DNA of 64,000 bases from Dehalococcoidia bacterium. GTDB lineage: Bacteria > Chloroflexota > Dehalococcoidia > Lucifugimonadales > Australimonadaceae. Positions 2,272 to 16,655 of this stretch are shown in pieces; within the stretch, counting starts at the first letter, position 1, and every line of letters begins with the position of its first letter. The position numbers and the translations under genes are program-made. The stretch spans positions 4,870 to 68,869 of the forward strand of contig DAOUKL010000055.1 of NCBI GenBank assembly GCA_034421335.1, written 5' to 3'. The notes beneath the pieces were generated by a model. That model did not search any database. It had not been told where the DNA came from and saw only the letters and a list, made by a program, of their open reading frames with translations.

Positions 2272-5200
2272 CTACCCGCCACTCTCCATCAGAAGGGCAT
2301 CGTAGACCCGGACCATCGCCTCGGTGTCGCGGGCGCAGTAGGCGAGGAGGCCGGCGCGGATCGCGGCGCGCTCGTCGTCGGGGGTTTCCGGCGCAATCAT
2401 GCGGAGGTAGGCGACGGAGGCCATCCGCCCGTCGGCGATGTTCAGGTCGTCGTAGCCGAGTTCGGGAACGATTGCCGGGAGGACGGACTTCATCGAGAAG
2501 CTCCCGTGGAAGTCCGGATGGTAGTAGCCCTCGCGCACGATCCTGAGCAGGTCGACGATGCGGCCCGTCAGCGCAAGGAGCCTGTCGCGGTAGCGCGGAA
2601 GGGCGTCGGCCAGATTGCCGAGCACCGCCTCCTCGTAGCCGCTGTAGGCGACGATGGCGCCGGAGGGGGGAAGGGCGTCGAGGAGCGCGGCGGCGAGCCG
2701 TTCGCGCGGGTCGTTGGCGTCGTCGTTGAGGAACTCGCGGTGCGCGAGCGCGCCCGCGGCGTCGCGGATATGCAGCGACCACTGGAAAGGCATCGTGGTG
2801 AACGGGCGTGTGCCCGCGTAGATGGGAACCACCGGCATGACCGTCTCGAAGTCGAGGAAGCTCATGGGGAACGCGATGTTCCGCAGTTTCGGGCCGAGCT
2901 CTGCGCCGACAAACGGACGCCCGCTCACGACGCTCTCGCGCACGCGCCGTTGCAGTGAGTTGAGGCCCTGGAACTCTGGAGGAATCGCGGCGACGTCGTT
3001 GATTCCCGCGTCTTTCAACCGGAGGCGGAGTTCGTCCTTGAGCCATGGCAGCCGGCGGACGGGGTGCTCAGGTTCATCGCTGTGACAGAGGCCGAAGAAG
3101 GAGCAGCGGTAAGGCTTCTCACAGTGCGGGCCGGTCGCGACCTCCGGTGGGTCGTTGAGCCTCAACGTCTCCCACATCGGCGGCAGTTTACCGGCGAGTT
3201 CGTCCGCCAGATACGACCGGACGTCGTTTGTCACGTCGTCGAGCGCGAAGAGCCGCTCCGGGTCGTGCTCACCGCCCTCGTAGAGGTACTCCTTGTCGAG
3301 GCGCATGATGAACACGCGGTCGACGCTGAGGCCAGCTCCCTCGACGACGTAGGTCTGGATGGCGGCGTCGGTGGTGTGGACGTCCTTGGCCCTGCTCGAT
3401 GATTTCACCTCGACGAGGTCGAAACCGCCCTGCCCGTTCGACACGAGCACGTCGACGCGGACCCTGATGTTCTCGAAGGCGAAGGCGGCCTCGAAGAGGG
3501 GAGGCGGAGCGTCACGGGCGAGCAGGGCCTGCGTCGTCGCGACGGCCTCGCCGTGCTCGTTGTACGGCTCCTCGACGAGCACGCCGCCGGGCCAGCGGCG
3601 CCGGGCAAGCTCGCCGACGGCATTCCCCATATCGAAGATCGCCTGTTGCGCCTCCCCAACCGGGTCGGCAAGTTCGATGTGGTACGACTCCAGGTAGAGG
3701 CGCTTCGGGCACTGAAGGCCGTGCTGAAAGCGGGACTTGGAGAGAGTCGGCGACGCCTGCAGCGCCCGCTTGCGGGCCAGCGCTTTGAAGAACCGCAGCG
3801 CCTCCGGGTTGGCGAGCGCATCCAGGCTCACGGCCTGCTCGACGGGGACGCCGGTGAGAATCTTCTTCACGGGCACCTCGAGCTTCTTGCCGTTCAGCGT
3901 CCGGGGAACTTCCGGTATCTCGTGGGCCTCGTCGGGAACATGGCGGGGCGAGAGGTTCGTGCGGATGGCGGCGGCGATCCTGGCCTTCATCGCGTCGTCG
4001 AGCGCATGACCCTCGCGCATGACCACGAACAGGTAGAGTTTGCCCTCTGCGCCGAGCCGGGTGGTGTCGATGACGAGGCTGTCGAGCACCTCGGGGAGGT
4101 CCTCGACGACGCGGTAGAACTCGCTCGTGCCCATGCGAACGCCGCTGCGGTTGAGCGTGGAGTCGGAGCGTCCGTAGATAACGCACGCGCCGCTCTCCGT
4201 AACCTTCAGCCAGTCGCCATGGCGCCATACGTCCGGGTACACATCGAAGTAGCTCTCGTGCAGGCGTACGCCGCCCTCGTCGTTCAGGAAGCGCACGGGC
4301 ATCGAGGGCATCGGCTCGGAGACGACCAGTTCGCCGACCTCGCCGACGACCGGCTTGCCGTCCTCGTCGAAGCTCTCGACCTTGCAGCCGAGGCAACGAC
4401 ACTGGATTTCGCCGGCGCGGACGGGCAGCGTGGGGCCTCCGCCGATGAACGCGGTGAGCACGTCGGTGCCGCCGCTGACGGACGCGAGGAGCAGGTCGCG
4501 CTTCACGCGCTCGTACACCCAGGCGAACCCCTCCGGCGGCAGCGGAGCGCCGGTGGAGCCGATGACGCGGAGGGCGTCCATGTCGAGCTCGCGTCCGGGT
4601 TCGACGCCGGCCTTCATGCAGCCGAGGATGTAGGGCGCGCTGACGCCGAAGCACGTCGTGCGCGTCCGCTCCGCCATGCGCCACAGGGCGTACATATCGG
4701 GGTGGGCCGGGCTGCCGTCGTACAGCACGATGGTCGCGCCGAGCAGCAGACCGCTCACCACGATGTTCCACATGATCCAGCCCGTGGTGCTGAACCAGAA
4801 GAAGCGGTCGCCCTCCTTGATGTCGAGGTGGAACGCGAGCAGCTTCAGGTGCTCGAGCAGCGCGCCCCCGTGGCCGTGGACTATCGCCTTGGGAGCGCCC
4901 GTCGTGCCCGACGAGTAGACGACCCACAGGGGGTGGTCGAACGGCACGGGCTCGAACTCGAGTTCCCGGCCCGGCGTGAGGAGGTCCGGCCAGAGGATTG
5001 CGTCGCGCAACTGCCCGATGTCCGGGGCGCCGGACAGGTACGGCAGCACGACGGTCTTGCGGAGCGTCGGCAGCGCCTGCTGAATCTCGGCGACGGCGCC
5101 GAGCGAGTCGAACGGCTTACCGCCGTAGGTGTAACCGTCGACGGCCAGCAGCGCCTTCGGGGCGAGCTGCTGGAACCGCTCGATGACGCTCTTCGTGCCG

Positions 5201-5745
5201 AACTCCGGCGGGCAGCTCGACCACGACGCGCCGATGGCCGCCGTCGCAAGCGCGGCGGCGACGGCGTCGGCGACGTTCGGCATATAGGCGACGACGGCGT
5301 CGCCTCGCCCAACGCCGAGGTCGCGCAGACCGGCTGCGATCTCCGCGGCGCGGGCGTAGAGCTGCGCGCGCGTCCATTCGACCGTCGCGCCGGACTCGTG
5401 GACGGCGATGAGCGCGAGCGCGTCGTCGCGGCGGGCGAGGGCGTGCTCGGCGTAGTTGAGGCTGGCGCCAGTGAACCAGCGAGCGCCCTCGACGCGCGTT
5501 CCGGTCGGCGACGGCGCCAGCACGCGGTCGTAGGGGCTATGCGACCGCACTCCGAAGTAGTCCCACACCGTCTCCCAGAAGGCGCCGACATCGGCGACCG
5601 ACCACCGCCACAGATCCTCGTAGCCGGCGAAGCGCAGCCCGCGCGTCTCGCCCAGCCACCGCTCGTAGGCGGCGAGATTGGCGGCGGCCTTGCGGCTCTC
5701 GGAGGGCGTCCACAGGAGCGCGCCCTCGGTAATGGGTTCAGGCAT
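2272..5745 (-). CDS. Acetoacetyl-CoA synthetase (acetoacetate-CoA ligase) fused in frame to a DUF2779-type Cas4-like/DEDD-like nuclease domain
   Basis: Start moved to ATG 5745 (MPEPITEGALLWTPSE...); the track start at 5919 runs through an intergenic repeat. The N-terminal ~664 aa have AMP-binding motif YSSGTTGAPKAIVH and end ...ANPEALRFF. There is no stop at the junction (~3753). The C-terminal 493 aa have QCPKRLYL, FDLVEVK, HCEKPYRCSFFGLCH, FLDFET and CARDTEAM. Confidence 0.8.
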   Translation of the reverse strand: MPEPITEGALLWTPSESRKAAANLAAYERWLGETRGLRFAGYEDLWRWSVADVGAFWETVWDYFGVRSHSPYDRVLAPSPTGTRVEGARWFTGASLNYAEHALARRDDALALIAVHESGATVEWTRAQLYARAAEIAAGLRDLGVGRGDAVVAYMPNVADAVAAALATAAIGASWSSCPPEFGTKSVIERFQQLAPKALLAVDGYTYGGKPFDSLGAVAEIQQALPTLRKTVVLPYLSGAPDIGQLRDAILWPDLLTPGRELEFEPVPFDHPLWVVYSSGTTGAPKAIVHGHGGALLEHLKLLAFHLDIKEGDRFFWFSTTGWIMWNIVVSGLLLGATIVLYDGSPAHPDMYALWRMAERTRTTCFGVSAPYILGCMKAGVEPGRELDMDALRVIGSTGAPLPPEGFAWVYERVKRDLLLASVSGGTDVLTAFIGGGPTLPVRAGEIQCRCLGCKVESFDEDGKPVVGEVGELVVSEPMPSMPVRFLNDEGGVRLHESYFDVYPDVWRHGDWLKVTESGACVIYGRSDSTLNRSGVRMGTSEFYRVVEDLPEVLDSLVIDTTRLGAEGKLYLFVVMREGHALDDAMKARIAAAIRTNLSPRHVPDEAHEIPEVPRTLNGKKLEVPVKKILTGVPVEQAVSLDALANPEALRFFKALARKRALQASPTLSKSRFQHGLQCPKRLYLESYHIELADPVGEAQQAIFDMGNAVGELARRRWPGGVLVEEPYNEHGEAVATTQALLARDAPPPLFEAAFAFENIRVRVDVLVSNGQGGFDLVEVKSSSRAKDVHTTDAAIQTYVVEGAGLSVDRVFIMRLDKEYLYEGGEHDPERLFALDDVTNDVRSYLADELAGKLPPMWETLRLNDPPEVATGPHCEKPYRCSFFGLCHSDEPEHPVRRLPWLKDELRLRLKDAGINDVAAIPPEFQGLNSLQRRVRESVVSGRPFVGAELGPKLRNIAFPMSFLDFETVMPVVPIYAGTRPFTTMPFQWSLHIRDAAGALAHREFLNDDANDPRERLAAALLDALPPSGAIVAYSGYEEAVLGNLADALPRYRDRLLALTGRIVDLLRIVREGYYHPDFHGSFSMKSVLPAIVPELGYDDLNIADGRMASVAYLRMIAPETPDDERAAIRAGLLAYCARDTEAMVRVYDALLMESGG

Positions 5746-5804
5746 AGGCGTAGGCGTCTCGGTCACTGGCGGCCTCACGGTGTGGGGTTCGCCGCAGCCC
5801 GGAT

Positions 5805-5957
5805 CATGGCTCGACAGGCTTGCCACGAACCGTCCCGGCGCATGGGGAGAGTGGCAGGATAGCGGGTTGCTCGTCAAGAGGCGCGGGGGAGGGGAGAATA
5901 GGGATGACAGGAGGCGCAACCCTCTCCCCGGCCCTCCCCCACGGGGGGAGGGGAGTT
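5805..5957. repeat. Intergenic repeat cluster (degenerate module A + module B)
   Basis: catggctcgacaggcttgccacgaac (5805-5830) resembles tggttcgacaggctcaccacgaac. ccctctccccggccctcccccacggggggaggggag (5920-5955) is the module B hairpin. Confidence 0.7.
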
Positions 5958-8671: not shown

Positions 8672-10897
8672 CTACGCCCCGCCCCTCTCGCGCAGCGCGG
8701 CGTACACCTTCTCGGCGCTCACCGGAAGGTCTTTCACTCGCACCCCAACGGCGTCTTCCACGGCGTTGGCGATGGCCGGAGCGACGGGCGTGAGCGGGTT
8801 CTCGCCGATGCCCTTGATGCCGTAGGGGCCGACGCCCTCCTGGGGATCGAGCAGCACCGTCCGCAGTTCGGGGATGTCCTCGATGTTCGGGATCTTGAAG
8901 TCGGCGAAGCTGGTGGTGACCACCCTGCCGCCTTCAACGACGACCTCCTCCATGAGGCCGTAGCCGACGCCCTGCATAACGCCGCCGTTGATCTGCCCCT
9001 GGTGCCCGATGGGGTTGATGATCCGCCCGATGTCGTGGGCCGTCGTCAGCTTCCGCAACTCGACCTGCCCGGTGTCCGGGTCGACGTACGTCTCGGCGAC
9101 CTGCGCGACGAACCCGGTGACCGGCGCGCGCTCCGCGGAGAACGTCGCCTCCGCGGTCGCCGGACGCCCCAGTTCGGCAAGCAGGTCGGGCCAGTTCCGC
9201 CGCTCGCCGGTGCCGCGATGGACCAGTTCGCGCCCGGCGATCTCGACGTCGCCGGACGGCCACCCAAGCGCCTCGGCGGCGAGGTCGCCCATCTCGCGCT
9301 TCACGGCCTGCGCGGCGCCGTACATCGAGCCGGTCACCACGTTCGTGCCGCGGCTCCCCCCAATGCCGGAGTCGAACGGGGAGTGGGCCGTGTCGAGCAG
9401 CTCGATCCGCAGTTCCTCCGGGTCGAGCCCCAACTCTTCCGCGACGACCTGGCGGGCGGTCGTGTAGGCGCCGGTGCCCTGGTCGAACACCGGCGTGCCG
9501 ATGACGACGTCGCCGTTGGGGTGGAGCGTGATGCGCGCCGCCGACTCGCCGGTGCCGGTGCCGCGGAAGGCCATCGCGACGCCCCTGCCGACGCCGGGCG
9601 CTTTGGGCGAGAAGTAATCGGCGGCCTCCAGAGCCGCCTCGAGCGTCTCCCTAGCGCGGATGCGCTCCAGCCGGTCGCCGGCCATGGTGGCGTCCCCGTC
9701 GCGGATGACGTTGCGCAGGCGGAACTCGGCGGGGTCCATGTCGATGGCCCGCGCCACGAGGTCGATGTGCGATTCCCCTGCGAAGAAGCCCTGCGGCTCG
9801 CCGGGCGCCCTCGCCTGCCCGCCCGGCAGGTTGTTGGTGTACACGCGCAGCACCTCGGCCCGCGCGTTGTCGCACTTGTACAGCCCCGCGCCGTGAGCGG
9901 CGCCGCCGAGCGGAGCGCCGGGCCTTACGCCTCCGTAACCGCCGCTGTCGAACACGCCGCGCATCGAGTGCGCGACAATCTCGCCGTCGCGCTTCACGCC
10001 CGTTTTGAGCGTCATGACGCCTGCGTGACGGGGGGCGGCGGCGGTCAGTTCCTCCGGGTGGTCCATCACCATCTTCACCGGCCTGCCCGTCCGCATGGCG
10101 AGCAGGCAGACGATGGGCTCTTCCAGCGTCGCGCCCTTGCCGCCGAAATCGCCGCCGACCTGCACGGGGTTGAGCACCACTTTCTCCGGCGGCAGGTCGA
10201 CGGCCATGGCGATGGCGCCTCGGATGCCGTGCGGGTTCTTGTTCGGCGCCCACAGTTGCAGCACGCCGTCCTCGTCCACCATCGCAAAGGCGCAGTGCGG
10301 TTCTATGTAGGCCTGATGCGTGCGCGGGACGCTGAACGTGTGCTCGACGATCACGTCGGCGGCTGCGAAACCGGCCTCGACGTCGCCCTTCTCGTGCGCG
10401 TCGCGCGCCAGCAGGTTCAGGTGGCGGCCTTCCTCGACCTCGTAGCCGAAGTACGACCGCACGTCGGGATGGATGACCGGCGCGCCCTCCTCGAGCGCCT
10501 CTACGGGGTCGAACACCGCCGGCAACTCCTCGTACTCGACCTCGATGAGTTGGAGCGCCCGCTCGACGGCCTCTTCGTCGTCGCCGGCGACGGCGACGAC
10601 GCGGTCGCCGACGAAGCGCACGACGTCGCGCGCGAGCACTGGCAGGTCGCGATAGCGGCGTCCATAGAGGACGCCGGGCACGTCGGCGCCCGTGAGGACG
10701 AGCCGGACGCCGGGGACCTGGCGGGCTTTGGCGGCGTCGATGCGGACGATGCGGGCATGAGGGAGCGGGCTGCGCAGCAGCTTTGCCCACAGCATGCCGG
10801 GCGCCTGTGCGTCCATGGCGTAGAGAGCGGCGCCGGTGGTCTTGCCCTGCACGTCGGTCTTGGGAACGGGACGCCCGATTACGCGGTAGGTCGTCAT
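8672..10897 (-). CDS. Xanthine dehydrogenase/aldehyde oxidase-family molybdopterin-binding subunit
   Basis: 741 aa. N-terminus MTTYRVIGRPVPKTDVQGKTTGAALY, plus GGDFGGKG and TNNLPGGQARAPGEPQG, fit the a/b-hammerhead plus MoCo-binding subunit. No CoxL-type AYRCSFR loop. Confidence 0.9.
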   Translation of the reverse strand: MTTYRVIGRPVPKTDVQGKTTGAALYAMDAQAPGMLWAKLLRSPLPHARIVRIDAAKARQVPGVRLVLTGADVPGVLYGRRYRDLPVLARDVVRFVGDRVVAVAGDDEEAVERALQLIEVEYEELPAVFDPVEALEEGAPVIHPDVRSYFGYEVEEGRHLNLLARDAHEKGDVEAGFAAADVIVEHTFSVPRTHQAYIEPHCAFAMVDEDGVLQLWAPNKNPHGIRGAIAMAVDLPPEKVVLNPVQVGGDFGGKGATLEEPIVCLLAMRTGRPVKMVMDHPEELTAAAPRHAGVMTLKTGVKRDGEIVAHSMRGVFDSGGYGGVRPGAPLGGAAHGAGLYKCDNARAEVLRVYTNNLPGGQARAPGEPQGFFAGESHIDLVARAIDMDPAEFRLRNVIRDGDATMAGDRLERIRARETLEAALEAADYFSPKAPGVGRGVAMAFRGTGTGESAARITLHPNGDVVIGTPVFDQGTGAYTTARQVVAEELGLDPEELRIELLDTAHSPFDSGIGGSRGTNVVTGSMYGAAQAVKREMGDLAAEALGWPSGDVEIAGRELVHRGTGERRNWPDLLAELGRPATAEATFSAERAPVTGFVAQVAETYVDPDTGQVELRKLTTAHDIGRIINPIGHQGQINGGVMQGVGYGLMEEVVVEGGRVVTTSFADFKIPNIEDIPELRTVLLDPQEGVGPYGIKGIGENPLTPVAPAIANAVEDAVGVRVKDLPVSAEKVYAALRERGGA

Positions 10898-10938: not shown

Positions 10939-11661
10939 TTAGAACATGTAGATGCGTTCTTTCAGCCGGAGGTCCTCGAGCGCCCGTATCGAGCGCGCCC
11001 GCTCAACGAACGCCTCCAGGCTCACGCCGGACAGCATCCCCTCCTCCGTGAGCATCGCGTGCAGTTCCGGGAACAGCCCCTCCGCCGACCGGCGCACGTT
11101 GAGCAGGTCGCCGGCAAAGTGGTAGGGCAGGAATTCCGGGGTGAAGTAGCGGAAGTTCTCCCGGAGGATGCGCTCCTCCTCGGCGCTGGCCGCCGCGGCG
11201 CAGCGCGCCTCGACGTACGAGCCGACGAGCGGCGGGGAGAAGTCGACGTAGAGCAAGTCGCCGTCTTCGCCGACGAAGTTCTTCACGTGCGGGTCGATGG
11301 ACACCCCGGCGTCGGCTGCCCGCCGCAGCACCGCGACCGCCGCGACGACGGCGGAGGCGTGGTCGCGCACGAGAGCCTCCGGCGTCTCGTACCGCTCCAC
11401 GAGATTGTCGCCGCCGTCCTCGCAGAGATAGACGACGCACTCATCCTCAACCCGGCAACTGAGCACAGCCGGCATGCGGACGCCCGCCCCCCGCAGCTGC
11501 CGCCGGTATTCCTCGATCTCCTCGACAATCTCTTCGAGCGAGCACGACAGCCAGTCGTTGGGGCGGATGGTCTTCTCGACCATCCGCTTGCCATCGCGCA
11601 CGAACCTCTCGATCCGGGTGTTGTGGACCGAGAAGCGGCTGGGGTCCGGCTCTCCCGGCAT
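10939..11661 (-). CDS. Uncharacterised protein with protein-kinase-like fold motifs
   Basis: 240-aa ORF with normal composition. IDPHVKNFV (catalytic-loop-like D-x-H-x-K-N) and LLYVDFSPP (DFG-like) suggest an atypical kinase or phosphotransferase fold. No family name recognised. Confidence 0.6.
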   Translation of the reverse strand: MPGEPDPSRFSVHNTRIERFVRDGKRMVEKTIRPNDWLSCSLEEIVEEIEEYRRQLRGAGVRMPAVLSCRVEDECVVYLCEDGGDNLVERYETPEALVRDHASAVVAAVAVLRRAADAGVSIDPHVKNFVGEDGDLLYVDFSPPLVGSYVEARCAAAASAEEERILRENFRYFTPEFLPYHFAGDLLNVRRSAEGLFPELHAMLTEEGMLSGVSLEAFVERARSIRALEDLRLKERIYMF

Positions 11662-11678: not shown

Positions 11679-12572
11679 CTAGCGGCCGGCGCCGACGCCG
11701 GCCTCCACGGGGTAGAGTTGCGCCACAAACTTCTTGGTGGAGACCATGTGCCGGGAGAGGCCCAGTTCCTTGGGGTCCAGGCCGAGGGCAAGGCCCACAG
11801 CCTGGGGCAAGTGGATGATGGGCAAATCAAAACGATTGCCGGTCGCCTTCTCGACCGCGGTCTGCTCTCCGTCCATCTCCAGATGGCAGAGCGGGCATGG
11901 CAACACCATGGCGTCGGCGCCCTTGCTGACCGCCTCGCCGAGGTGCTTCGCGGTCATCGCGAAGGCGTTCTCTTCGTTGGCGGTGAGCGAGGGGAAGCCG
12001 CAGCACTTGCCCTTGCCGGCGATGTCGACGTTCGTGCCGCCCAGCGCCTCGGTCACCTGTTCGAGGTACAGTTTGCGCTCCGGGCGTTGAATGACGTCGA
12101 TGGGGCGGCGGAGGTAGCAGCCGTAGAACGGCGATAAGCCGAGCCCGTTGAGCGTGCGACGCGCCTTGCTCCTCACAACGTCGAGGCCCACGTCCTCGAC
12201 GAGCGCCCAGAGGAAGTGCTTCACGTCGGTTGTGCCGTGGTATTCGAGCCCCTCTTCCGCCAGGTGCTCGCGGTTGATGCGCTCCCGGTAGACGGGGTCG
12301 GAGAGCCGGAGGGCGCTGCCGCCGATGACGCCCTGACAAGTGCTGCAGATGGTGAGCAGCGGGAGGCCCATCGCCTCCGCCTTGGCTAGCGTGCGCGCGT
12401 TGATGGGGTCGCATATCTCGGCGGGAATCAGCCCGGCGCCACTGCAGCCGACGTCCTTCAACTCCTCCACTTCGATATCCAATTCGGCTGCGACCCGCAC
12501 GAACGACTCGTAGAGTTCCGGGCAGAAGCCCTTGGCGACGCACCCGGGATAGAACGCGAACCGGTGGCTCAT
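11679..12572 (-). CDS. HdrB/SdhE-like protein with two CCG-type cysteine-rich domains
   Basis: 297 aa. First domain: YPGC...GCSG...CSTC. Second domain: FYGC...GKCCGFP...PCPLC. ATGA overlap with the upstream FeS gene. Confidence 0.85.
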   Translation of the reverse strand: MSHRFAFYPGCVAKGFCPELYESFVRVAAELDIEVEELKDVGCSGAGLIPAEICDPINARTLAKAEAMGLPLLTICSTCQGVIGGSALRLSDPVYRERINREHLAEEGLEYHGTTDVKHFLWALVEDVGLDVVRSKARRTLNGLGLSPFYGCYLRRPIDVIQRPERKLYLEQVTEALGGTNVDIAGKGKCCGFPSLTANEENAFAMTAKHLGEAVSKGADAMVLPCPLCHLEMDGEQTAVEKATGNRFDLPIIHLPQAVGLALGLDPKELGLSRHMVSTKKFVAQLYPVEAGVGAGR

Positions 12573-13534
12573 CGCTTCTTCTCCTTTCGCAGCCCCGCAT
12601 TCGAGCGGTTGTATCTGTCGAATATCTTCTTGATCTGGTCCGCGCCGGGCCGCTTGTAGTGGGGCTTCAGAGTGGCCTTGCCCTTCCTCAGAGCGCGCAA
12701 TCCCAGCGGCAGCGTGTGCAGCCCGCCCCTGATGAGGCCGCCGTAGGTCTGTAACGCGACGGAGCGCTCATCGAGCCACCCCTTGCGCGAGATGGACTCC
12801 TCGAACGCGTCGTAGTGGCGCTCCAGCATCTTGTTGCCGTAGCCGGACTTGATGCCGTGAGCGATGGCCTTGTCCCGCGTGTCCATAATGAGGTGAGTCG
12901 GCTCCAGGCCGAGGGGGCAGTGCTCGGTCGCCTCCCAGCAGTGGACGCAGTCCCATATCCCGTGGACTTCGCTGCCTTCGCGCAGCCGCTCAGCGGTGAT
13001 GGAGTCGCGGGGGTCGACCGCGAAGCGGTAGAGCTTGGTGAGGGCGGCGGGGCCGTAGAAGTCGAGGTTCACGTCGATCACCGTGCAGCCCTCATCGCAC
13101 AGGCCGCAGGTGGTGCAGCGCATCGCCTGGCGCACCGGGCGCAACTCCTCGTCGGTCACGGGGCGGTCGCCGTTGGGCACGACGCCCCTGGCGAAGTGGT
13201 CGACCTTGTCCCACAGGAACTTCTTCACGTCGTACATCACGTCCCGCGTAACGGGGGCGTAGCGGACGGGTTGCACGGTGATGACCTCGTCCTTCTGGGT
13301 TTCGCCGACGGTTACGAGGCACGAGGGCTTCTGCGCGCCGTTCAGGCTCACGGTGCAGTCGCCGCAGAAGCCGACGCCGCAGTTGCCCCTGAAGGCGAGT
13401 GTGCCGTCCTGCGTTTCGCGGACGGCCACGAGGGCGTCGAACACCGTGGACCCGGGGTCGACATCGGCCTCGTAGTCGGAGTACACGGGCTGGGCCCGGG
13501 TTCCTGCGCGCTGGAACTTGAAGGTGATTTTCAC
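12569..13534 (-). CDS. Succinate dehydrogenase/fumarate reductase-like iron-sulfur subunit with C-terminal extension
   Basis: 321 aa. GTG start preceded by AGGAGG. Cys motifs CGVGFCGDC...C (2Fe-2S-like), CTTCGLCDEGC and CVHCWEATEHCP, plus an ~80-aa basic C-terminal extension. Confidence 0.85.
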   Translation of the reverse strand: MKITFKFQRAGTRAQPVYSDYEADVDPGSTVFDALVAVRETQDGTLAFRGNCGVGFCGDCTVSLNGAQKPSCLVTVGETQKDEVITVQPVRYAPVTRDVMYDVKKFLWDKVDHFARGVVPNGDRPVTDEELRPVRQAMRCTTCGLCDEGCTVIDVNLDFYGPAALTKLYRFAVDPRDSITAERLREGSEVHGIWDCVHCWEATEHCPLGLEPTHLIMDTRDKAIAHGIKSGYGNKMLERHYDAFEESISRKGWLDERSVALQTYGGLIRGGLHTLPLGLRALRKGKATLKPHYKRPGADQIKKIFDRYNRSNAGLRKEKKR

Positions 13535-13566: not shown

Positions 13567-15084
13567 TCAGGAAGCCGCGACGGCTTCCCTGCGGGTCGCC
13601 GGGCCGGCGTCCCCGCGCGTAACCGAAATCCGCGCGGCCTGCGCGTCGTCCTGGTCGGGGTAGTCCGTCCGAACGTGGACGCCGCGGCTCTCCGTGCGCT
13701 CGAGCGCGCTCGCCACGATCGTCTCCGACACGTCGAGCAGCCAGCCGAGCTCCAGGTACTGAACGAGGCCGAAATTATAGTCTCTCGTGCCGACGCCGGC
13801 GCCGAGCTGCGCCGCCTCTTCGCGCATCGCGCGGATGCGCTCCTGCGCGGCTCCCAGGCCCTTGGCGTCCCGGCTCATGCCGGCCTTCTCGTGCATGAGC
13901 GCGGCGAGTTCCGAGCGGAGCGCCGCAACAGGCGCGCCTCCCGGACGCCCCAGCGCGGCGGAGACGTAGGCGTCCTCCTTGTGGAGCGCCGCGTCGTTCG
14001 TCGGCTCCGAGCCCGCGTCCTGCATCGCCGCGCGCGCCGCCGCAGTCCCCGCCCGCTTGCCGAACGACGCCGACAGGAGCAGGAAGTTGCCGTCGAGCCC
14101 TCGGGCCCCGTGGAAACCGGCGCCCGCGCACTCGCCCGCGGCGTACAGACCCGGCATCGACGTGGCCCCATTGGCGTCGACGGCGATGCCGCCGAGCAGG
14201 CGCGACATCGCGGGCGCGACCGGCGCCGCGTCCTTCAGCATGTCCACGCCCGCAAGCGCCTTCACCCGGTGCAGCGTGTCCGGGAATCGCGTTGCGGCCT
14301 CCGACGGCTCCGGCAACCCACTGAGCGTCACTCCGCCGTTCACCGTCGACGCTCCGCCGGCCCAGAGCAGCGGCGAGAGGGCCAAGCGGCGGTCCTTCAG
14401 CACGTAGGGGTAGTACTGTACGAACTCCATGTCGACGAGCCGGACGCCGGCGCGGTAGGCGGCCGCGATGCCGGCGCCGCCGCACTGCAGCGACGACGTG
14501 CTGGGATCGTAGGCCCGCCTCGGCCCGCCCGTCGCCAGGACGACGGCGCCGGCGGGCATCGTCTCCAGCTCGCCGGTGGCCATGTCGAACGCGACGACGC
14601 CCCCACACTTGCCGTTCTCCACCACGAGGGCGGTGACGACCCACTCGATGCACATGTGGACGCCGGCGCCGATGGCCTGCTCGTACAGGGTTTGGGTGAG
14701 CGCCAGGCCGGTGGAGTCGTCCACGTAGACGGCGCGCGCGTCCCCGGCGCCGGGCAACTGCGCACGGTGAATCACCGTGCCCTGACGGTTGAAAGGCGCG
14801 CCCATGCGGTCGAGCTCGATCACCAGCCCCGGCGCCTCGCGGCAGACGTCCTCGACGATCGACGCGTCGCCTACGCCGACGCCGGCCGCGAGCGTCTCCG
14901 CGACGTGCGACTGCCGGCTTTCATCCGCGCCGCTGCCGGCGTTGAGGCCGTCTTGCACGGACACCGAATAGCTGCGCGCGGGATGCGACTGGGTGACGAG
15001 CGCAACCGACGCGCCGGCGCGCTTGGCGGCCACCGCCGCGCGCAGTCCGGCAATGCCGCCTCCTACCACGAGCACTTCATGCAT
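13567..15084 (-). CDS. FAD_binding_2 (SdhA/FrdA/NadB-superfamily) flavoprotein with non-canonical active-site motifs
   Basis: Start moved to ATG 15084, preceded by GGGAGGAG. VLVVGGGIAGLRAA is an FAD fold motif. RSYS, MEFVQYYPY, SRLLGG and HGARGLD replace RSH[ST], MEFVQ[FY]HPT, HYxMGG and HGANRLG. Confidence 0.85.
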   Translation of the reverse strand: MHEVLVVGGGIAGLRAAVAAKRAGASVALVTQSHPARSYSVSVQDGLNAGSGADESRQSHVAETLAAGVGVGDASIVEDVCREAPGLVIELDRMGAPFNRQGTVIHRAQLPGAGDARAVYVDDSTGLALTQTLYEQAIGAGVHMCIEWVVTALVVENGKCGGVVAFDMATGELETMPAGAVVLATGGPRRAYDPSTSSLQCGGAGIAAAYRAGVRLVDMEFVQYYPYVLKDRRLALSPLLWAGGASTVNGGVTLSGLPEPSEAATRFPDTLHRVKALAGVDMLKDAAPVAPAMSRLLGGIAVDANGATSMPGLYAAGECAGAGFHGARGLDGNFLLLSASFGKRAGTAAARAAMQDAGSEPTNDAALHKEDAYVSAALGRPGGAPVAALRSELAALMHEKAGMSRDAKGLGAAQERIRAMREEAAQLGAGVGTRDYNFGLVQYLELGWLLDVSETIVASALERTESRGVHVRTDYPDQDDAQAARISVTRGDAGPATRREAVAAS

Positions 15085-15227
15085 GTGCTCCTCCCGTAAT
15101 CTGTGAGTCAAGCGGCGGGGGTATCCCCTCGCGTAACTTTACCACCTGCGCGCAAGTCATGTGCGCGGCGCAGGGGCAGAGAGCGGGCGCAAGGCGCGCG
15201 AGTGGCGATTGCCGGTATCATCCCCCT

Positions 15228-16655
15228 ATGCCCGCTCCGCAAAGACGCACGAAAATCGTGGCCACCTGGGGGCCCGCCCTCGCCGATGAAGAGCGACTGC
15301 GCCAGGCTATCCTCGCCGGCGCCGACGTCTTCCGCCTCAATTTCTCCCACGCGACCAGCGAGGAGGTCAGCTCCGTCGTCCCGCGCATCCGGGCTCTCAG
15401 CGCCGAACTCGATCGCCCCGTCGCGCTCCTGCAGGACATCCAGGGCCCGCGGCTGCGCACCGGCGAGGTGGAGAACCCCGAGGGCGCAACCCTGACCATC
15501 GGCGAACGCGTCGTCGTCACCTCCGAGCCCGTCCCCGTAACCTCGTCGGTCGTGTCGATCCCCTACCCCAGGCTGGCGCATGACGTCGCGCCGGGGCACC
15601 GCATCCTCATCGCGGACGGCGTCATGGCCCTCCGGGTCGCCGCCGTCCGCCCGCCCGAACTCGACGCCGAGGTTGTCGCCGGCGGCGTGCTCACCTCCCA
15701 CAAGGGCGTCAACCTGCCCGACTCCCACGTGACCGCCGACCCGCTCACGCCGAAAGACCGCGCCGACCTTGCGCTCGGCGCCGAGCTCGGCGTCGATTAC
15801 GTCGCGGTCAGCTTCGTCCGGAGCGGCGCGGACGTGGAGGCGTGCCGCAGCTTGCTCCGCGAACTCGGCGCCGAAACCCCCATAGTCGCCAAGATCGAGC
15901 ATCCCCTCGCCATCGACAACCTCCCGGAGATCCTCGAGGCGTCCGACGCCGTGATGGTTGCGCGCGGCGACCTGGGCGTCGAAGTATCGCCCGAGCGCGT
16001 TCCCCTCCTGCAGAAACAGATCATCGCGCAGGCCAACGAGGCCGGTCTGCCCGTCATCACCGCCACCCAGATGCTGGAGTCGATGATCGAGCGCTCCACT
16101 CCCACGCGCGCGGAGGCGAGCGACATCGCCAACGCCATTCTCGACGGCACGGACGCCGTGATGCTCTCCGGGGAGACGGCGATCGGCGCGTTCCCCACGG
16201 AGGCCATCGCCACCATGGCGCGCATCGCCCTGGCCGCGGAAACGTCGGAGGCGTCGGCGCGGCATTTCCGACAGCAGGGCGGGGATGACCAGCCGCACGC
16301 AATGGCCGGCGCCGCCTGTATGCTCGCCGAGCGCCTGGGGGCGCGCGCGATGGTCGTCGTAACCGGAAGCGGCCGCACCGCCGCGACGCTCTCCCGGCAG
16401 CGCCCCGCCGTTCCTATCTACGCGTTCACTTCCGGGCCCGAGGCCGCCCGCAGCCTCATGCTCTGGTACGGCGTTTGGCCCATTCAGACCACCATCGCAG
16501 ACCGATTCGAGGTTACGGTGCAGTCGACGCTGGGGCTGCTCGAGCAGCGCGACGCCGTCGCCCCCGGCGATAGCGTCGTCTTCTTCGGCACGGCGCCTGT
16601 CGGCGCAGGCAAGATGCCGAACCTCATCACGGTGCGCACGGTCGGCGATGGGTGA
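15228..16655 (+). CDS. pyk: Pyruvate kinase
   Basis: Start moved to ATG 15228. RRTKIVATWGPA N-terminus, MVARGDLGVE, and a C-terminal regulatory domain. Confidence 0.9.
   Translation: MPAPQRRTKIVATWGPALADEERLRQAILAGADVFRLNFSHATSEEVSSVVPRIRALSAELDRPVALLQDIQGPRLRTGEVENPEGATLTIGERVVVTSEPVPVTSSVVSIPYPRLAHDVAPGHRILIADGVMALRVAAVRPPELDAEVVAGGVLTSHKGVNLPDSHVTADPLTPKDRADLALGAELGVDYVAVSFVRSGADVEACRSLLRELGAETPIVAKIEHPLAIDNLPEILEASDAVMVARGDLGVEVSPERVPLLQKQIIAQANEAGLPVITATQMLESMIERSTPTRAEASDIANAILDGTDAVMLSGETAIGAFPTEAIATMARIALAAETSEASARHFRQQGGDDQPHAMAGAACMLAERLGARAMVVVTGSGRTAATLSRQRPAVPIYAFTSGPEAARSLMLWYGVWPIQTTIADRFEVTVQSTLGLLEQRDAVAPGDSVVFFGTAPVGAGKMPNLITVRTVGDG

What the first reader, a model, noticed from the sequence alone, without database searches (positions are those of the whole stretch)
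13567..15084. SdhA/FrdA-family flavoprotein in which every recognisable dicarboxylate-site motif is replaced
The N-terminus (VLVVGGGIAGLRAA) places it in the FAD_binding_2 family, and the partners give a type-E SQR / thiol:fumarate-reductase-like architecture. The signatures I can align all differ from the canonical ones. R-S-H-[ST] (covalent FAD His) reads RSYS. MEFVQ[FY]HPT reads MEFVQYYPY (nt 14404-14430, checked by back-translation). The following TEGxRGEGG loop is not recognisable (ALSPLLWAGGASTVNGG). HYxMGG reads SRLLGG. HGANRLG reads HGARGLD. The FeS partner also has an unusual third Cys motif (CVHCWEATEHCP) and an ~80-aa C-terminal extension. This argues for non-covalent FAD and a substrate other than succinate or fumarate.
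Basis: partly seen in the sequence, partly recalled or inferred. Interest (0 to 1): 0.6.

Follow-up and report, generated by a model that had tools for sequence, protein, structure and literature searches.

The report
Complex II paralogue without succinate site
A SAR202-type Chloroflexota genome has a normal succinate dehydrogenase and also a second three-subunit copy; the copy's flavoprotein has lost every residue that binds succinate or fumarate and about half of its lid, yet it is conserved in relatives, so it most likely does a different, still unknown redox job.

Summary
Window 13567-15084 (-) encodes a 505-aa SdhA/FrdA-fold flavoprotein (AF2 pLDDT 94.6; TM 0.95 to E. coli FrdA). Three independent alignments agree on the substitutions: H44->Y, H232->Y, T234->Y, T244->S, E245->P, R248->W, H355->S, R390->G. 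About 53 residues of the capping domain, including R287, are deleted.

It is the first gene of a tight operon with an SdhB-like FeS protein and an SdhE/HdrB-like CCG protein. The same genome has a canonical type-E SdhA-SdhB-SdhE on another contig with all catalytic residues.

The variant belongs to a well-supported 39-member clade of about 500-aa proteins from SAR202/Dehalococcoidia. That clade sits at the end of a graded series of residue loss inside an 83-member 'RSYS' superclade, which always keeps the A-B-E trio. dN/dS is about 0.13-0.3, and the FAD motifs and FeS ligands are retained. The former catalytic positions now vary, and the flavoprotein evolves about 2.7x faster than its canonical counterpart.

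Best reading: a neofunctionalised complex-II derivative with non-covalent FAD and an unknown, non-dicarboxylate substrate, still wired through three FeS clusters to a CCG subunit. A catalytically dead flavoprotein is not excluded. The FeS partner's CVHCWEA[TS]EHCP motif is conserved across the superclade. Its C-terminal extension is an ordinary type-E trait.

The parts
13567..15084 (-). A': 505-aa SdhA/FrdA-fold flavoprotein with the dicarboxylate site dismantled and the capping domain shortened (about 65 aa instead of 119)
   Evidence: PF00890 and PF02910. TIGR01812 scores 345 bits in two pieces against a cut-off of 567. Residue mapping. AF2 pLDDT 94.6 and Foldseek TMq 0.93-0.95 to FrdA/SdhA.
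12569..13534 (-). B': 321-aa SdhB-like FeS subunit. The [2Fe-2S] and first [4Fe-4S] motifs are intact. The third motif is C-x2-C-x6-C-P (CVHCWEATEHCP), with the +6 Cys replaced by Ala. It has a type-E-like C-terminal extension.
   Evidence: PF13085 and PF13183. TIGR00384 scores 147.6 against a cut-off of 88; PRK12577 scores 174.8 against 349. Alignment with E. coli SdhB/FrdB, the genome's own canonical SdhB and the superclade partners.
11679..12572 (-). E': 297-aa SdhE/HdrB-like protein with two CCG domains. Its start overlaps the B' stop by 4 nt. It is 50% identical to the genome's canonical SdhE and has an extra Cys in GFCPELY.
   Evidence: PF02754 x2. MFR_anch_SdhE 174 bits and HdrB 153 bits, both below cut-off. 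Alignments.
10939..11661 (-). 240-aa minimal protein-kinase-like ORF. It follows the trio in 22 of 23 query-clade loci.
   Evidence: Invariant motifs VEKTI, DPHIKNF and YVDFSPP. AF2 pLDDT 88.8. All top Foldseek hits are kinases or APH, but TM is only 0.40-0.47. Synteny.
8672..10897 (-). 741-aa XDH-family molybdopterin subunit with no adjacent small or medium subunit. It is a neighbour only in the window's own genus (6 of 23 loci).
   Evidence: PF01315, PF02738 and PF20256. Synteny.
15159..16655 (+). Pyruvate kinase, transcribed divergently from the trio. It is a conserved neighbour in 23 of 23 query-clade loci and in one basal superclade locus.
   Evidence: PF00224 and PF02887. Synteny.
11800..13050 (.). 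Recombination tract covering the 3' half of B' and nearly all of E'. It is closer to another genus than to the window's own genus.
   Evidence: Sliding-window nucleotide identity is 85-91% to L028/L034 and 66-80% to L021/L022, and the pattern is reversed in the flanks. The A' tree conflicts with the B' and E' trees. Pairwise identity table.

Best explanation
A'B'E' is a working three-subunit redox enzyme. It arose by duplication of a type-E succinate:quinone reductase / thiol:fumarate-reductase-like complex and has given up succinate/fumarate chemistry.

Shown:
- A' keeps the SdhA fold, the FAD-binding motifs and the interface region.
- B' keeps the ligands of the [2Fe-2S] and first [4Fe-4S] clusters.
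- E' keeps all CCG cysteines.
- The operon is under purifying selection and is conserved in at least 23 species.

Inferred:
- FAD is bound non-covalently (Tyr39 in place of His44), so it has a lower potential than in true SDH.
- The hinge is fixed by the invariant Pro238, and the lid is reduced to a hairpin plus two helices.
- The polar dicarboxylate pocket is replaced by aromatic and aliphatic side chains (Y39, Y225, Y227/A, L239, L240, W/L241, F324, F334), plus the superclade-invariant D45 and R189 and the nearly invariant R295.
- The flavin therefore exchanges a hydride or electrons with a substrate that is not a C4-dicarboxylate. That substrate is probably uncharged or hydrophobic, or too bulky for a closed lid.
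- Electrons pass FAD <-> [2Fe-2S] <-> [4Fe-4S] <-> a modified third cluster (three Cys: a [3Fe-4S], or a [4Fe-4S] with a Glu/His ligand from WEA[TS]EH) <-> the CCG subunit. By analogy with the 50%-identical canonical SdhE in the same cell and with other CCG proteins (GlpC, GlcF), the CCG subunit connects to the quinone pool.
- With non-covalent FAD, the likely direction is reduction of an acceptor by quinol, or oxidation of a donor with a lower potential than succinate.

The substrate itself is unknown.
For: - Fold and cofactor motifs are retained. The most conserved 10-residue blocks (top-residue frequency >=0.90) are 1-20, 31-40, 91-100, 131-140, 181-190, 311-330, 381-390 and 461-470; these include the GxGxxG, ATGG, GLYAAGE/HGA and ESRGVH segments.
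- All five fumarate-binding/catalytic residues and His44 are replaced or deleted. Residue roles come from PMC5773532.
- The substitutions are clade-wide: P238 and G329 39/39, the deletion 39/39, D45 and R189 invariant in the 50 aligned RSYS-superclade sequences.
- Purifying selection: against L021, dN/dS is 0.13/0.98 for A', 0.16/0.94 for B' and 0.14/1.25 for E'.
- The trio is the only gene set conserved across the superclade.
- A canonical SdhA-SdhB-SdhE with all residues lies on contig C17 and passes TIGR01812 (726.7 against 567.3), so the paralogue is not needed for the TCA cycle.
- Loss is graded along the tree: canonical -> T234/R248/R390 lost -> H44/R287 lost -> H232/E245/H355 and half the lid lost.
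- The B' third motif is conserved in all superclade partners examined, and the E' cysteines are conserved.
- Type-E cluster S3 and the SdhE/CCG-to-quinone link: PMC2754724.
Against: - The former catalytic positions are not fixed inside the clade: position 39 is Y30/H4/F3, position 225 is Y28/H3/S3 plus others, position 294 is S30/H6/A2. They are therefore not a new precise catalytic set.
- Between two genera, A' differs by 35% where canonical SdhA differs by 13%. B' and E' differ by 24% and 20% against 18% and 14% for their canonical counterparts. This is what relaxed constraint on a dead site would also give.
- No neighbour conserved across the superclade hints at a substrate.
- Model coordinates could not be inspected, so the hydrophobic, open pocket is inferred from homologous positions and was not measured.
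- No paper describing this clade was found.
Confidence: 0.6

Rival explanations
1. Pseudoenzyme. A' is a catalytically dead scaffold. It may still bind FAD to fold, and it is kept only because B' and E' need it for assembly. Any remaining function lies in the FeS/CCG module, or the complex is decaying slowly.
For: Every catalytic residue is lost, and the positions that held them are now variable. The residual lid is among the less conserved parts of the protein: blocks 241-260 score 0.63-0.69, although blocks 351-370 are lower. A' is the fastest-evolving subunit, whereas canonical SdhA is the slowest in its complex. B'/E' cassettes are exchanged between genera independently of A'.
Against: dN/dS for A' is 0.13-0.3. 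New residues around the flavin site (by homology) are invariant in the query clade, and two of them across the superclade: D45 and R189 superclade-wide; P238-L239-L240, G329 and F334 in the query clade. All four [2Fe-2S] ligands next to the flavin are retained in B'; an FeS wire that ends at an inert flavin has no obvious use. The trio has been retained through at least 83 sequence clusters and at least 23 species.
Confidence: 0.2
2. Thiol-coupled soluble enzyme of the TfrAB type. The CCG subunit is the second catalytic site and oxidises or reduces a thiol/disulfide pair. The flavin handles an acceptor other than fumarate. The complex does not talk to quinone.
For: E' matches the HdrB model (153 bits). 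No transmembrane anchor gene is in the operon. The superclade's E' has a fifth Cys in the N-terminal CCG domain, as HdrB does, whereas the canonical SdhE of the same genome has only four. The nearest canonical-like relatives carry the H-R-P-I-G-G motif; that this motif resembles TfrA is my own recollection and was not tested. PMC2754724 derives type-E SQR from a TFR-like ancestor.
Against: TfrB is a fusion of FeS and CCG modules, but here they are separate genes. The TfrA and TfrB models score far below cut-off: 254 against 718, and 89 against 385. E' is 50% identical to the genome's own SdhE, which belongs to a canonical SQR operon. The first CCG motif is CSG rather than CCG, as in SdhE. No CoM/CoB-type thiol is known in this lineage (my own knowledge).
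Confidence: 0.12
3. It is still a succinate dehydrogenase or fumarate reductase that uses substitute residues (R295, R328, R189, Tyr side chains).
For: Overall SdhA fold and the A-B-E architecture. Arg residues lie next to two of the lost positions.
Against: R328 is not conserved in the clade. R295 also occurs in clades that keep all canonical residues. The proton-donor segment is deleted and the hinge T-E is now S-P. A fully canonical SdhABE exists in the same genome and in all 60 of the 61 relatives' genomes searched that gave a match (the one without a match is 72% complete).
Confidence: 0.04

Closest known systems
Type-E succinate:quinone oxidoreductase (SdhA-SdhB-SdhE[-SdhF]) of Sulfolobus/Acidianus and cyanobacteria, and the canonical copy on contig C17 of this genome
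   Same: Same three-gene architecture and order. The SdhA fold is the same. SdhB has the long C-terminal extension and an extra Cys at +3 of the third motif. The anchor-like subunit has two CCG domains and is 50% identical to the genome's own SdhE.
   Different: No His for covalent FAD. None of H232, T244, R287, H355 or R390 is present. The capping domain is about 54 aa shorter. The third FeS motif lacks the +6 Cys. E' has an extra Cys. Flavoprotein models are missed by wide margins.
Thiol:fumarate reductase TfrAB of methanogens
   Same: A soluble-looking flavoprotein + FeS + CCG combination with no membrane-spanning subunit. The nearest canonical-like clades share the H-R-P-I-G-G motif; that TfrA-type sequences carry this motif is my own recollection and was not tested here.
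   Different: In TfrB the FeS and CCG parts are fused. TfrA keeps the fumarate site. The NCBIfam equivalog scores are 254/718 and 89/385.
E. coli quinol:fumarate reductase FrdA / succinate dehydrogenase SdhA
   Same: Fold: TMq 0.95 and rmsd 2.1 A to 1kf6_A. The FAD-binding motifs and the C-terminal ESRGxH segment are shared.
   Different: About 27% identity. All residues shown to bind and protonate fumarate are absent. Residues corresponding roughly to FrdA 256-312 are deleted.
L-aspartate oxidase NadB (a family member with non-covalent FAD)
   Same: Non-covalent FAD is expected in both. Similar size, about 500-540 aa.
   Different: NadB works alone and keeps the His/Arg set at the active site. 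Here those residues are lost and FeS/CCG partners are present. TIGR00551 scores 279 against a cut-off of 452.75.
8-methylmenaquinol:fumarate reductase (SdhABE) of Wolinella/Campylobacter
   Same: A-B-E gene trio with a CCG subunit (PMC2680327 title and abstract).
   Different: No Tat signal at the A' N-terminus (it starts MHEVLVVGGG). Model scores are 216/1100, 85/600 and 174/500. The fumarate site is absent.

Membership tests
SdhA/FrdA complex II flavoprotein | FAD_binding_2 plus Succ_DH_flav_C domains and the SdhA fold | tested here: met
   PF00890 1.1e-51 and PF02910 2.7e-23. Foldseek TMq 0.93-0.95 to FrdA/SdhA chains.
SdhA/FrdA complex II flavoprotein | His (FrdA H44) for the 8-alpha-N3-histidyl FAD linkage | tested here: not met
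   Tyr39 in the query. Across the 39-member clade the position is Y30/H4/F3.
SdhA/FrdA complex II flavoprotein | Dicarboxylate-binding and catalytic residues H232, T244, R287, H355, R390 (PMC5773532) | tested here: not met
   They read Y225, S237, deleted, S294 and G329 in three independent alignments.
SdhA/FrdA complex II flavoprotein | Full-length mobile capping domain (FrdA 233-351) | tested here: not met
   About 65 residues instead of 119, with a 53-column gap in hhalign. The Pfam and NCBIfam matches split in two around profile positions ~233-336.
SdhA/FrdA complex II flavoprotein | Curated NCBIfam score (TIGR01812 cut-off 567.3) | tested here: not met
   345.3 bits. Control: the genome's own canonical SdhA scores 726.7 bits.
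SdhB/FrdB iron-sulfur subunit (partner B') | Three Cys motifs for [2Fe-2S], [4Fe-4S] and the third cluster; TIGR00384 cut-off 88 | tested here: inconclusive
   TIGR00384 scores 147.6, above the cut-off. Motifs I and II are intact. Motif III lacks the +6 Cys (C-x2-C-x6-C-P). The cluster type cannot be told from sequence.
Type-E SQR (SdhABE) | SdhA-SdhB-SdhE gene trio, no transmembrane anchor, CCG-domain subunit, extra Cys in SdhB motif III | tested here: met
   Gene order and domains. Cys at +3 is present. The same layout occurs in the canonical operon on C17.
Type-E SQR (SdhABE) | Succinate:quinone oxidoreductase activity | not testable with these tools
   Loss of the whole succinate site makes this activity very unlikely. 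It needs an enzyme assay.
Thiol:fumarate reductase TfrAB | Fused FeS-CCG subunit TfrB, and TfrA with an intact fumarate site | tested here: not met
   B' and E' are separate genes. Model scores are 254/718 and 89/385. The fumarate site is absent.
L-aspartate oxidase NadB | Stand-alone flavoprotein, TIGR00551 cut-off 452.75, conserved His/Arg active site | tested here: not met
   279.1 bits. It sits in an operon with FeS and CCG partners. The residues are absent.

The most novel reading that the evidence does not exclude
A complex-II-derived enzyme whose flavin site has been rebuilt as a hydrophobic pocket with only a small lid. It would act on a substrate class never linked to SdhA-type flavoproteins with FeS/CCG partners, for example an uncharged or bulky organic compound of the kind SAR202 bacteria are thought to oxidise, or a diffusible redox mediator. 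It would couple that substrate to the quinone pool through a re-tuned third FeS cluster. That would be a new respiratory dehydrogenase or reductase activity.
Probability: 0.45. Interest if true: 0.75.

Novelty: new variant of a known kind. Interest (0 to 1): 0.6.

Why it matters
Complex II flavoproteins are among the most conserved enzymes known, and their active-site residues are normally invariant. Here a whole clade keeps the flavoprotein-FeS-CCG electron wire but has removed the dicarboxylate site and half of the lid, and the intermediate stages are still alive in related lineages.

This offers two things. First, a candidate new quinone- or thiol-linked oxidoreductase in SAR202 Chloroflexota, a globally abundant but uncultured group. 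Second, a natural series for studying how a tightly optimised active site is dismantled and possibly re-used.

It is also a practical warning. These genes are annotated 'succinate dehydrogenase / fumarate reductase flavoprotein' or 'FAD-binding protein'. Metabolic reconstructions would miscount them as a second SDH or FRD.

Tried and rejected
- Literature: four full-text searches found no description of an SdhA-like clade lacking the catalytic residues with SdhB/SdhE partners. Two further queries were rejected for syntax and did not run. The library does not hold all complex II classification papers, so this is weak evidence of absence.
- Substrate hints from gene neighbourhood: nine loci across the superclade share only the trio. 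Pyruvate kinase, the kinase-like ORF and EamA recur only among closer relatives, so they cannot be separated from inherited synteny.
- Model coordinates are not exposed to the Python box, so flavin accessibility and pocket volume could not be measured.
- 'B' and E' are far more conserved than A'' looked striking at first. It turned out to be partly an artefact of a recombination tract in this genome. The corrected comparison still shows A' as the fastest subunit, but less dramatically.
- Displaced catalytic Arg (R328): rejected because it is not conserved.
- The ~30%-identical hits in Desulfobacterota, Pelotomaculum and Entotheonella are different families that keep R287/H355/R390 and are not part of this clade.
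- Sequence search of PDB chains (phmmer) with the 240-aa ORF gave nothing meaningful.
Full report
THE GENE AND ITS OPERON

Window 13567-15084 (minus strand) encodes a 505-aa protein. The ATG at 15084 (MHEVLVVGGG) is the start used by all homologues; the ORF extends to a TTG at 15111. The protein has FAD_binding_2 (1.1e-51) and Succ_DH_flav_C (2.7e-23) domains, but the FAD_binding_2 match is split in two. It misses every curated NCBIfam cut-off. For example, TIGR01812 gives 345 bits against a cut-off of 567, with profile positions ~233-336 unmatched.

Downstream genes on the same strand, with the gap or overlap to the preceding gene:
- An SdhB-like FeS protein, 12569-13534, 321 aa, after a 32-nt gap.
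- A protein with two CCG domains of the SdhE/HdrB type, 11679-12572, 297 aa, overlapping the FeS gene by 4 nt.
- A 240-aa ORF.
- An XDH-family molybdopterin subunit.

CHECKING THE OBSERVATION

I mapped the protein onto E. coli FrdA in three ways:
- phmmer against PDB chains.
- MAFFT L-INS-i together with E. coli FrdA, SdhA and NadB taken from NC_000913, the genome's own canonical SdhA and 117 of the 120 listed database homologues (those of at least 480 aa).
- A global profile-profile alignment, hhalign probability 100.

All three agree. In literature numbering: H44->Y39, E49->Q44, G50->D45, H232->Y225, T234->Y227, T244->S237, E245->P238, R248->W241, H355->S294, R390->G329. A gap of about 53 residues removes the part of the capping domain that carries the proton donor R287.

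According to PMC5773532, H232, H355 and R390 (flavin domain) and T244 and R287 (capping domain, residues 233-351) position and protonate fumarate, and covalent attachment raises the flavin potential. All of these are absent here. No catalytic residue reappears at an offset. R328, next to the R390 position, varies freely in the clade. R295 is conserved, but it is also found in relatives that keep the complete canonical set.

An AlphaFold2 model built on 94 sequences is confident (pLDDT 94.6, pTM 0.94). It superposes on FrdA/SdhA structures with TM 0.93-0.95 normalised to the query. So this is an SdhA fold with a reduced lid (a hairpin and two helices between residues ~239 and 278), not a misassembled or broken gene.

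THE GENOME HAS A NORMAL ENZYME AS WELL

Contig C17 of the same 2.48-Mb assembly carries sdhA-sdhB-sdhE in the same order. That SdhA has RSHS, MEMVQYHPT, SEAARGEGAY, ASRDVVSR, HYIMGG and HGGNRLG. It scores 726.7 bits on TIGR01812 in one piece. The window's trio is therefore a paralogue of a type-E complex:
- A' is about 49% identical to SdhA over the N-terminal half.
- B' is 36% identical to SdhB.
- E' is 50% identical to SdhE.

It is a type-E trait.

A CLADE, NOT A ONE-OFF

The protein database holds dozens of close relatives. The first 38 hits are 59-93% identical and 489-524 aa long, apart from one 440-aa sequence.

In a maximum-likelihood tree of 120 sequences rooted on NadB:
- The query lies in a 39-member clade (SH-aLRT 100).
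- That clade is sister to a 23-member clade.
- Both lie inside an 83-member superclade, which I call 'RSYS' after its motif. The superclade in turn nests among canonical-looking relatives.

Residue states along this series are graded:

| Group | State of the catalytic residues |
|---|---|
| Canonical sequences and a 17-member clade | All residues kept |
| 13-member clade | T234, R248 and R390 lost |
| RSYS superclade | Also H44 (Tyr/Phe) and R287 lost; mostly keeps H232, E245, H355 |
| Query clade | Also loses H232 (mostly Tyr), E245 (Pro, 39/39) and H355 (mostly Ser); all 39 carry the capping-domain deletion (four of the 23 sister-clade and seven of a neighbouring 10-member clade's sequences also have a gap at R287) |

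Distribution:
- In the GTDB species genomes, 23 species have a 64-80% identical copy. All are labelled Dehalococcoidia, SAR202 or Chloroflexota.
- In the window's family, 14 of 37 genomes have it; all 7 genomes of its genus do.
- In an even sample of 401 genomes of the class, 9 genomes in 5 genera have it.
- In the 1.84-billion-protein representative library, the whole superclade collapses to two 50%-identity representatives (802 and 771 bits). The next hit scores 608 bits.

IS IT FUNCTIONAL?

Against same-genus orthologues, dN/dS is about 0.13-0.2 for all three subunits, for example A' 0.13/0.98. This is similar to the neighbouring pyruvate kinase.

Within the clade the most conserved blocks are the dinucleotide-binding segments, the HGA/GLYAAGE region and the C-terminal ESRGVH segment. 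New residues are invariant in the query clade, and two of them across the superclade: D45 and R189 superclade-wide; P238-L239-L240, G329 and F334 in the query clade. B' keeps all ligands of the [2Fe-2S] and first [4Fe-4S] clusters. E' keeps every CCG cysteine.

On the other side, the positions that used to hold catalytic residues are variable: Y/H/F at 39; Y/H/S and others at 225; S/H/A at 294.

A' is also the fastest-evolving subunit. Between two genera without cassette exchange:

| Complex | A | B | E |
|---|---|---|---|
| Canonical | 87% | 82% | 86% |
| Paralogue | 65% | 76% | 80% |

So the flavoprotein is under clear purifying selection, but with a relaxed former active site.

THE FeS AND CCG PARTNERS DIFFER IN CONSERVED WAYS

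Classical SdhB/FrdB has C-x5-C-x3-C-P in motif III. The canonical type-E protein of this genome has C-x2-C-x2-C-x3-C-P. Type-E enzymes carry a second [4Fe-4S] as cluster S3 (PMC2754724). B' and every superclade partner examined have C-V-H-C-W-E-A-[TS]-E-H-C-P: the +3 Cys is present and the +6 Cys is Ala. That leaves three Cys for the third cluster. The cluster is therefore either a [3Fe-4S] with an unusual ligand set, or a [4Fe-4S] with a Glu/His ligand. This is an inference.

E' of the superclade has an additional Cys (GxCPELY). This gives the N-terminal CCG domain five cysteines, as in HdrB.

CONTEXT

Across nine loci spanning the superclade, only the A-B-E trio is constant.

Within the query clade:
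- The 240-aa ORF follows the trio in 22 of 23 loci.
- An EamA transporter follows in 21 of 23 loci.
- Pyruvate kinase is divergently adjacent in 23 of 23 loci.
- The XDH subunit is present only in the window's own genus.

The 240-aa ORF is a minimal protein-kinase-like fold with intact Lys / D-x-H-x-K-N / D-F-S motifs. Its structural matches are weak, TM 0.40-0.47. None of this identifies a substrate.

INTERPRETATION

The most economical reading is a neofunctionalised complex-II derivative. Its features would be:
- Non-covalently bound FAD of lowered potential.
- A rigid hinge (Pro238) and a small lid.
- A pocket lined by aromatic and aliphatic side chains in place of the His/Arg/Thr set.
- An intact FeS wire to a CCG subunit.

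By analogy with the canonical SdhE in the same cell and with GlpC/GlcF-type proteins (PMC2754724), the CCG subunit most likely connects to the quinone pool.

The substrate is not succinate or fumarate by any known mechanism. Beyond that it is unknown. I give this reading 0.6. Rivals:
- A catalytically dead flavoprotein retained as a scaffold: 0.2.
- A thiol-coupled Tfr-like enzyme with a non-fumarate acceptor: 0.12.
- Residual succinate/fumarate activity: 0.04.

COMPARISON WITH KNOWN SYSTEMS AND NOVELTY

It works like, and descends from, type-E SQR / thiol:fumarate reductase. It fails the defining tests for SdhA/FrdA membership: the covalent His, the catalytic residues, a full lid and the curated score. 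It also fails the tests for TfrAB, NadB and MFR.

Degenerate SdhA-like proteins are not unique to this clade. Several other representatives with broken catalytic sets appear among the next-best database hits. Families in Desulfobacterota, Pelotomaculum and Entotheonella lack H44 and H232 but keep both Arg.

What is special here is four things together: the complete loss of the site, the lid deletion, strict retention of the FeS and CCG partners, and the visible stepwise series. I found no description of it in the held literature.

I rate it a new variant of a known kind, interest 0.6.

LIMITS

- No access to model coordinates.
- dS is near saturation for the more distant pairs.
- All relatives are uncultured MAGs, although several are single-contig assemblies.

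Noticed in passing
window ~11800-13050: Inter-genus recombination tract. The 3' half of the FeS gene and nearly all of the CCG gene are 85-91% nt identical to loci of another genus (L028, L034) but only 66-80% identical to own-genus loci. The flanks, including the flavoprotein gene, show the reverse. A second genome of the genus (L023 = G002) shows the same. G035 against G011 has A' 79% but B' 98%.
   Followed up: partly
window 10939-11661 (-): The 240-aa ORF is a minimal protein-kinase-like fold (AF2 pLDDT 88.8). All top Foldseek PDB hits are kinases or aminoglycoside phosphotransferases, but TM is only 0.40-0.47. Motifs VEKTI, DPHIKNF and YVDFSPP are invariant. Pfam gives only a weak DUF6206 match. 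It follows the trio in 22 of 23 loci.
   Followed up: partly
window 8672-10897 (-): XDH/aldehyde-oxidase-family molybdopterin subunit (741 aa) with no adjacent [2Fe-2S] or FAD subunit. It is present next to the trio only in the window's own genus. A more distant locus (L014) has a Fer2/Fer2_2 + Mo-subunit pair ~5 kb upstream of its trio.
   Followed up: no
window 11679-12572 (-) and L014-L016, L101, L104: The CCG subunits of the whole RSYS superclade carry an extra Cys (GxCPELY) that the genome's canonical SdhE lacks (GGAPELY). This gives five Cys in the N-terminal CCG domain, as in HdrB.
   Followed up: no
window 15159-16655 (+); L011, L013, L101: Pyruvate kinase is divergently adjacent to the trio in all 23 query-clade loci and also in a basal superclade locus (P0085, 44% identical flavoprotein). 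It is not adjacent in the other subclades.
   Followed up: no
proteins P0176, P0187, P0188, P0192, P0197, P0198, P0203, P0205, P0214, P0215 (representative library): Other SdhA-like representatives outside the RSYS superclade also have broken catalytic sets. Degeneration of the dicarboxylate site has probably happened several times independently.
   Followed up: no
loci L044-L088: Families about 30% identical to the query in Desulfobacterota, Pelotomaculum (several copies per genome), Entotheonella and others lack H44 (N/G/T/S) and have Tyr at H232, but keep R287, H355 and R390. They are distinct from the clade studied here.
   Followed up: no
own genome contig C82 (L002 ~1500-2964): A third FAD_binding_2 protein in the genome has an N-terminus (ADIIVIGAGNAALCAALAAREGG) that looked TcuA (tricarballylate dehydrogenase)-like to me. 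This was not tested with family models. It is not NadB-like.
   Followed up: no
window 2272-5919 (-): A 1215-aa ORF combines acetyl-CoA-synthetase-like AMP-binding domains with a C-terminal DUF2779 domain.
   Followed up: no
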